A DNA stretch of 64,000 bases from Ignavibacteriota bacterium (GTDB taxonomy: Bacteria > Bacteroidota > Ignavibacteria > Tepidaquicellales > OLB5), in assembly GCA_003820375.1 (NCBI GenBank), contig RPQH01000016.1:11-64010 (forward strand), in the 5' to 3' direction. The DNA is not shown here. Continued below: a report on this DNA, generated by a model with database tools.

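What the first reader, a model, noticed from the sequence alone, without database searches (positions are those of the whole stretch)
24462..42211. 17.7 kb supercluster with about 104 haem-binding motifs: candidate complete, uncharacterised extracellular electron-transfer system
Sixteen co-directional, tightly packed or overlapping minus-strand genes. They encode 8 c-type cytochromes with 5, 14, 4, 15, 18, 20, 9 and 19 CXXCH/CXnCH motifs (my count). They also encode three FdnI/HydC-like b-type cytochromes, a Tat-exported 4-cluster FeS protein, an NrfD-type membrane subunit, and a predicted outer-membrane beta-barrel. Every compartment needed to move electrons from the quinone pool to the cell exterior is represented in one locus. 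These are several alternative inner-membrane quinol-oxidising modules, long periplasmic multihaem 'wires', a barrel, and a lipoprotein cytochrome. I saw no CXXCK motif (NrfA) and no molybdopterin subunit (ACIII, Psr, Ttr). That argues against the well-known enzyme systems that use NrfCD-type modules. The redundancy of inner-membrane entry points is reminiscent of the Geobacter Cbc/ImcH logic, but the gene set and order are different.
Basis: partly seen in the sequence, partly recalled or inferred. Interest (0 to 1): 0.85.

Follow-up and report, generated by a model that had tools for sequence, protein, structure and literature searches.

The report, continued
Full report

Yes. Between 24462 and 42211 there are 15 ORFs on the minus strand. 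They are separated by -50 to +63 nt, apart from one 414-nt gap. Counting CXXCH and CX3-4CH on the translations gives 5, 14, 4, 15, 18, 20, 9 and 19 motifs in eight proteins. Residue-shuffled versions of the same proteins give 2.1±1.4 motifs.

Pfam confirms the other products:
- three Ni_hydr_CYTB (FdnI/HydC-type) proteins;
- one NrfD protein (E 1e-30);
- one NrfC/PsrB-like protein with four ferredoxin motifs and an RRQFLR twin-arginine signal.

No molybdopterin subunit is present. The Cys-free 435-aa protein has no family hit. It has a signal peptide and a C-terminal Phe. With a 45-sequence alignment it is modelled as a 24-strand beta-barrel (pLDDT 81, pTM 0.70) that matches only outer-membrane barrels in the PDB. 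Gene 1 has a signal peptide ending in a Cys that is conserved in orthologues.

It sits inside a palindromic repeat element and is not credible.

**2. Source and relatives**

The porin and the T9SS cytochrome are identical to proteins of an NCBI MAG named 'Ignavibacteriae bacterium' (locus tag EHM58_05330 for the porin; contig 64,495 nt). They also occur in JGI metagenome 3300027722.

The best 36 homologues of the 20-haem protein (62-86% identical) carry only Ignavibacteria names where a source name is given. Relatives at 30-40% identity occur in Acidobacteriota, Deltaproteobacteria, NC10, Aminicenantes, Nitrospirota, Planctomycetota, Rhodothermales, Fibrobacteria and Schekmanbacteria.

I fetched contexts and mapped them onto the window genes by BLASTP.

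| Locus | Arrangement |
|---|---|
| L003, L012, L013 | Keep g15-g14-g13-g12-g11-g10-g9-g8 in order, with the same haem counts (19, 9, 20, 18). L012 and L013 also show the full c554/barrel/14-haem/lipoprotein-cytochrome module; in L003 the held DNA ends within the barrel gene. |
| Window, L002, L003 | The NrfD/FeS/15-haem module follows g8. |
| L012 | The NrfD/FeS/15-haem module precedes g15. |
| L013 | The NrfD/FeS/15-haem module is replaced by Rieske/cytochrome b plus an 11-haem cytochrome. |
| L016 (3.6-Mb genome) | The NrfD/FeS/15-haem module is absent. The minimal set is T9SS cytochrome, sigma-54 regulator, g15, g14, g13, g8, g4, g3, g2, g1, then ccmC/E/F. |
| L015 | Has the inner-membrane genes only, with the 19-haem cytochrome fused to a cytochrome b (897 aa). 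|
| L005 (Schekmanbacteria) | Has a 9-haem domain fused to a cytochrome b (637 aa). |

The block is therefore a conserved core plus two exchangeable accessory modules (g12-g9 and g7-g5).

**3. Parts outside the given coordinates**

The window encodes a sigma-54-dependent response regulator at 47843-49213. Divergent from it, at 49507-51603, is a 698-aa cytochrome with nine CXXCH and a type IX secretion C-terminal sorting domain.

Orthologues of both lie immediately upstream of the g15-like gene in L016 (54% and 67% identity) and L003 (52% and 64%). L013 has the regulator (69%) next to a more distant T9SS cytochrome (29%). The regulator alone is present in L012 and L015. In the window, four unrelated ORFs separate them from the cluster.

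The T9SS cytochrome family is large. The best 120 homologue clusters listed (of 1164 at E<=1e-5) are all at least 50% identical and about 700 aa long, and all but one carry PF18962.

A sigma-54-like motif, TGG[CT]A[CT]-N5-TTG[CT], lies 29-60 nt upstream of the g15-like gene in 6 of 6 loci. The background is 0.0023 per 100 nt. The -12 element is non-canonical (TTGT) in three loci, the window included, so I treat the promoter as likely, not proven. A ccmF gene is at 15970-18327, and ccm genes flank the cluster in L012 and L016.

**4. What the proteins are**

*Cytochromes b.* g13 aligns end to end with E. coli FdnI. Five His are invariant across twelve paralogues and orthologues. Four of them align with the FdnI His residues that I recall as the two b-haem ligand pairs (His18/57/155/169; from memory of the Fdn-N structure, not checked here). 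The three paralogues form three orthologous types, each tied to one c-type partner:
- g14-g13 (fused in L015);
- g12-g11 (4-nt overlap);
- g10-g9 (14-nt overlap, a pair conserved as far as Deltaproteobacteria).

g14 and g11 end in a transmembrane helix containing a His. This is the topology of FdnH or the hydrogenase small subunit next to their cytochrome b (established knowledge).

This is the CbcL design. CbcL is nine c-haems plus a HydC/FdnI-like domain (PMC6295460). The supplement of that paper lists two Ignavibacteria proteins with 19 CXXCH followed by six transmembrane helices as CbcL/MtrH/MtoC homologues. g14 has the same count and similar spacing.

*g8 and g9.* The family alignment has 18 invariant CXXCH. 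Its profile matches NrfH at the N-terminus (E 5e-11). Over about 230 positions, including a helix bundle, it matches OcwA, the nine-haem cell-surface terminal reductase of Thermincola (E 6e-22; the identity of 6I5B was checked in PMC6703420). The AlphaFold2 model (pLDDT 77) shows two high-confidence three-helix bundles. Foldseek ranks the C. ferrireducens S-layer undecahaem cytochrome and OcwA first, then MccA, octahaem nitrite reductase, NrfA and HAO, with low global TM-scores.

These proteins are thus NrfH-anchored chains of NrfA/OcwA-like modules. The conserved non-motif residues (12 invariant plus 3 near-invariant His, and 3 conserved Met) equal the 18 conserved haems. That fits all-six-coordinate haems and hence electron transfer rather than catalysis. 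This last step is inference.

*g5-g7.* This is an NrfD/NrfC/multihaem unit without a catalytic subunit. The FeS protein is closest to PsrB, TtrB and DsrO, but every curated model is below its cut-off (DsrO 193 against 200 bits). The design equals NetBCD, HmcABC or Qrc. For M. roseus, an NrfCD pair was already proposed to feed periplasmic cytochromes and an outer-membrane Fe(III) reductase (PMC3534657).

*g4-g1.* These are a c554-type tetrahaem cytochrome, the barrel, a 14-haem cytochrome and a lipoprotein cytochrome with a Geobacter-type CX4CH/CXXCH domain. This matches the published description of I. album IALB_1840-1837: a periplasmic cytochrome, a porin, a 400-aa 14-haem cytochrome and an outer-membrane cytochrome with an atypical motif (PMC4245776). 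OmbB-like PCCs are reported for Ignavibacteria MAGs from anodes and an iron hot spring.

*T9SS cytochrome.* It has nine haems. Its best solved relatives are OcwA (E 5.9e-10, short stretch) and the C. ferrireducens undecahaem cytochrome (1.2e-5 over 254 residues).

**5. Mechanism I commit to**

Quinol oxidation happens at one or more inner-membrane entry modules: split CbcL-type units, NrfH-anchored 18/20-haem wires, and the NrfCD/15-haem unit. Electrons are relayed through the long membrane-anchored cytochromes and the c554-type protein. They cross the outer membrane through the 14-haem cytochrome inside the barrel to the lipoprotein cytochrome. They are then handed to the T9SS-displayed nine-haem cytochrome, which reduces extracellular acceptors.

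Transcription depends on sigma-54 and an NtrC-type response regulator.

Shown: composition, motifs, folds, domain homologies, synteny and the conserved motif. Inferred: complexes, localisation, direction and substrate.

Confidence is 0.62. The rivals are:
- reverse operation, that is electron uptake (0.15);
- catalysis on soluble N, S, Se or As compounds by the NrfA/OcwA-like modules (0.10);
- a mosaic of independent modules (0.10).

**6. Comparison with what is known, and novelty**

It works like Geobacter's Cbc/Pcc pathways and Shewanella's Mtr pathway. It is not a member of Mtr, ImcH, Nrf, Psr/Ttr or ACIII, because defining features were tested and not met.

It is a member, at the level of architecture, of the Pcc class and of the CbcL-type and NetBCD-type module classes. 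Direct homology to the Geobacter and Aeromonas proteins could not be tested.

'Uncharacterised' is correct in the experimental sense.

I did not find the following described in the literature searched:
- the core/accessory modular structure;
- the NrfH-OcwA fusion wires;
- the sigma-54 regulon signature;
- the conserved T9SS-sorted OcwA-like cytochrome as the probable terminal reductase.

I therefore rate it a new variant of a known kind, with interest 0.52. The most novel reading not excluded is T9SS-dependent display of a holo-multihaem terminal reductase working with a separate porin-cytochrome conduit. I give it a probability of about 0.4 and an interest of about 0.72 if true.

Noticed in passing
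window 28553-28788 (intergenic between the NrfD gene and the c554-like gene): A roughly 240-nt element bounded by perfect G+C-rich inverted repeats (CCTCACCCCCCAACCCCCTCTCC / its complement). It encloses four palindromic 22-nt units (CCCCTCTCCAAGTGGAGAGGGG-like) spaced 51 nt apart. It is unique in the window and looks like a MITE- or REP-like insertion or a structured RNA or processing site. Gene callers place a 46-aa ORF in it.
   Followed up: partly
window 27801-27824: A strong 9-bp G+C-rich hairpin (TACGCCCGC...GCGGGCGTA) lies between the c554-like gene and the barrel gene. It is terminator-like on both strands and could attenuate or separate transcription within the porin-cytochrome module.
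   Followed up: no
window 42212-47842: Four ORFs are inserted between the cluster and its conserved regulator: 42778-44001, 44488-44976 and 45562-46326, none with a Pfam hit, and 46483-47745, a BNR/Ycf48-like protein with a T9SS tail. In L003, L013 and L016 the regulator abuts the cluster. G+C drops from 0.36-0.43 inside the cluster to about 0.28-0.32 in this stretch and in the downstream flank.
   Followed up: partly
window 51742-52551 (+): A 269-aa protein with a T9SS sorting domain and a single CXXCH lies immediately downstream of the T9SS nine-haem cytochrome. It may be a co-exported partner or a monohaem cytochrome.
   Followed up: no
window 22595-23446 (-), 21406-22584 (-), 23446-23865 (-): A Ser/Thr protein kinase domain protein and two ORFs without family hits lie directly downstream of the lipoprotein cytochrome, on the same strand. 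Whether they belong to the island is unknown. Relatives have ccm genes or a Crp-type regulator at this position instead.
   Followed up: no
L013 14407-17458 (and L014): In one relative the NrfCD/15-haem module is replaced at the same position by a Rieske protein, a cytochrome b (bc-type) and a 494-aa 11-haem cytochrome with a weak NrfA-family signal. This is a natural swap of the quinol-oxidising module.
   Followed up: partly
L012 17773-18600: The g1 orthologue (lipoprotein cytochrome) is split across reading frames in this 932-kb contig. This is either a frameshift pseudogene or an assembly error.
   Followed up: no
L003 13202-13216: A second copy of the sigma-54-like motif (TGGCACgatatTTGT) lies about 35 nt upstream of the 15-haem gene of the NrfCD module. 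This suggests the accessory module carries its own sigma-54 promoter.
   Followed up: no
L016 2319-2333 (-); window 49214-49506: In L016 a sigma-54-like motif also lies on the strand of the T9SS cytochrome gene, about 240 nt upstream of it. In the window the corresponding intergenic region has only a degenerate version (TTGGCACGGAAAATGAC). The T9SS cytochrome may therefore belong to the same regulon.
   Followed up: partly
Protein P0267 (homologue of window 49507-51603): A 55%-identical T9SS-tailed homologue is named 'ammonia-forming cytochrome c nitrite reductase subunit c552' in NCBI. This is probably a misannotation, since the window protein has no CXXCK motif.
   Followed up: no
window 36295-37239 (g10) and 39058-39942 (g13): Two of the three cytochromes b carry long, highly charged Lys/Glu-rich cytoplasmic extensions: N-terminal and coiled-coil-like in g10, C-terminal in g13. 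The g10 extension is conserved in orthologues as far as Deltaproteobacteria. Their function is unknown.
   Followed up: no
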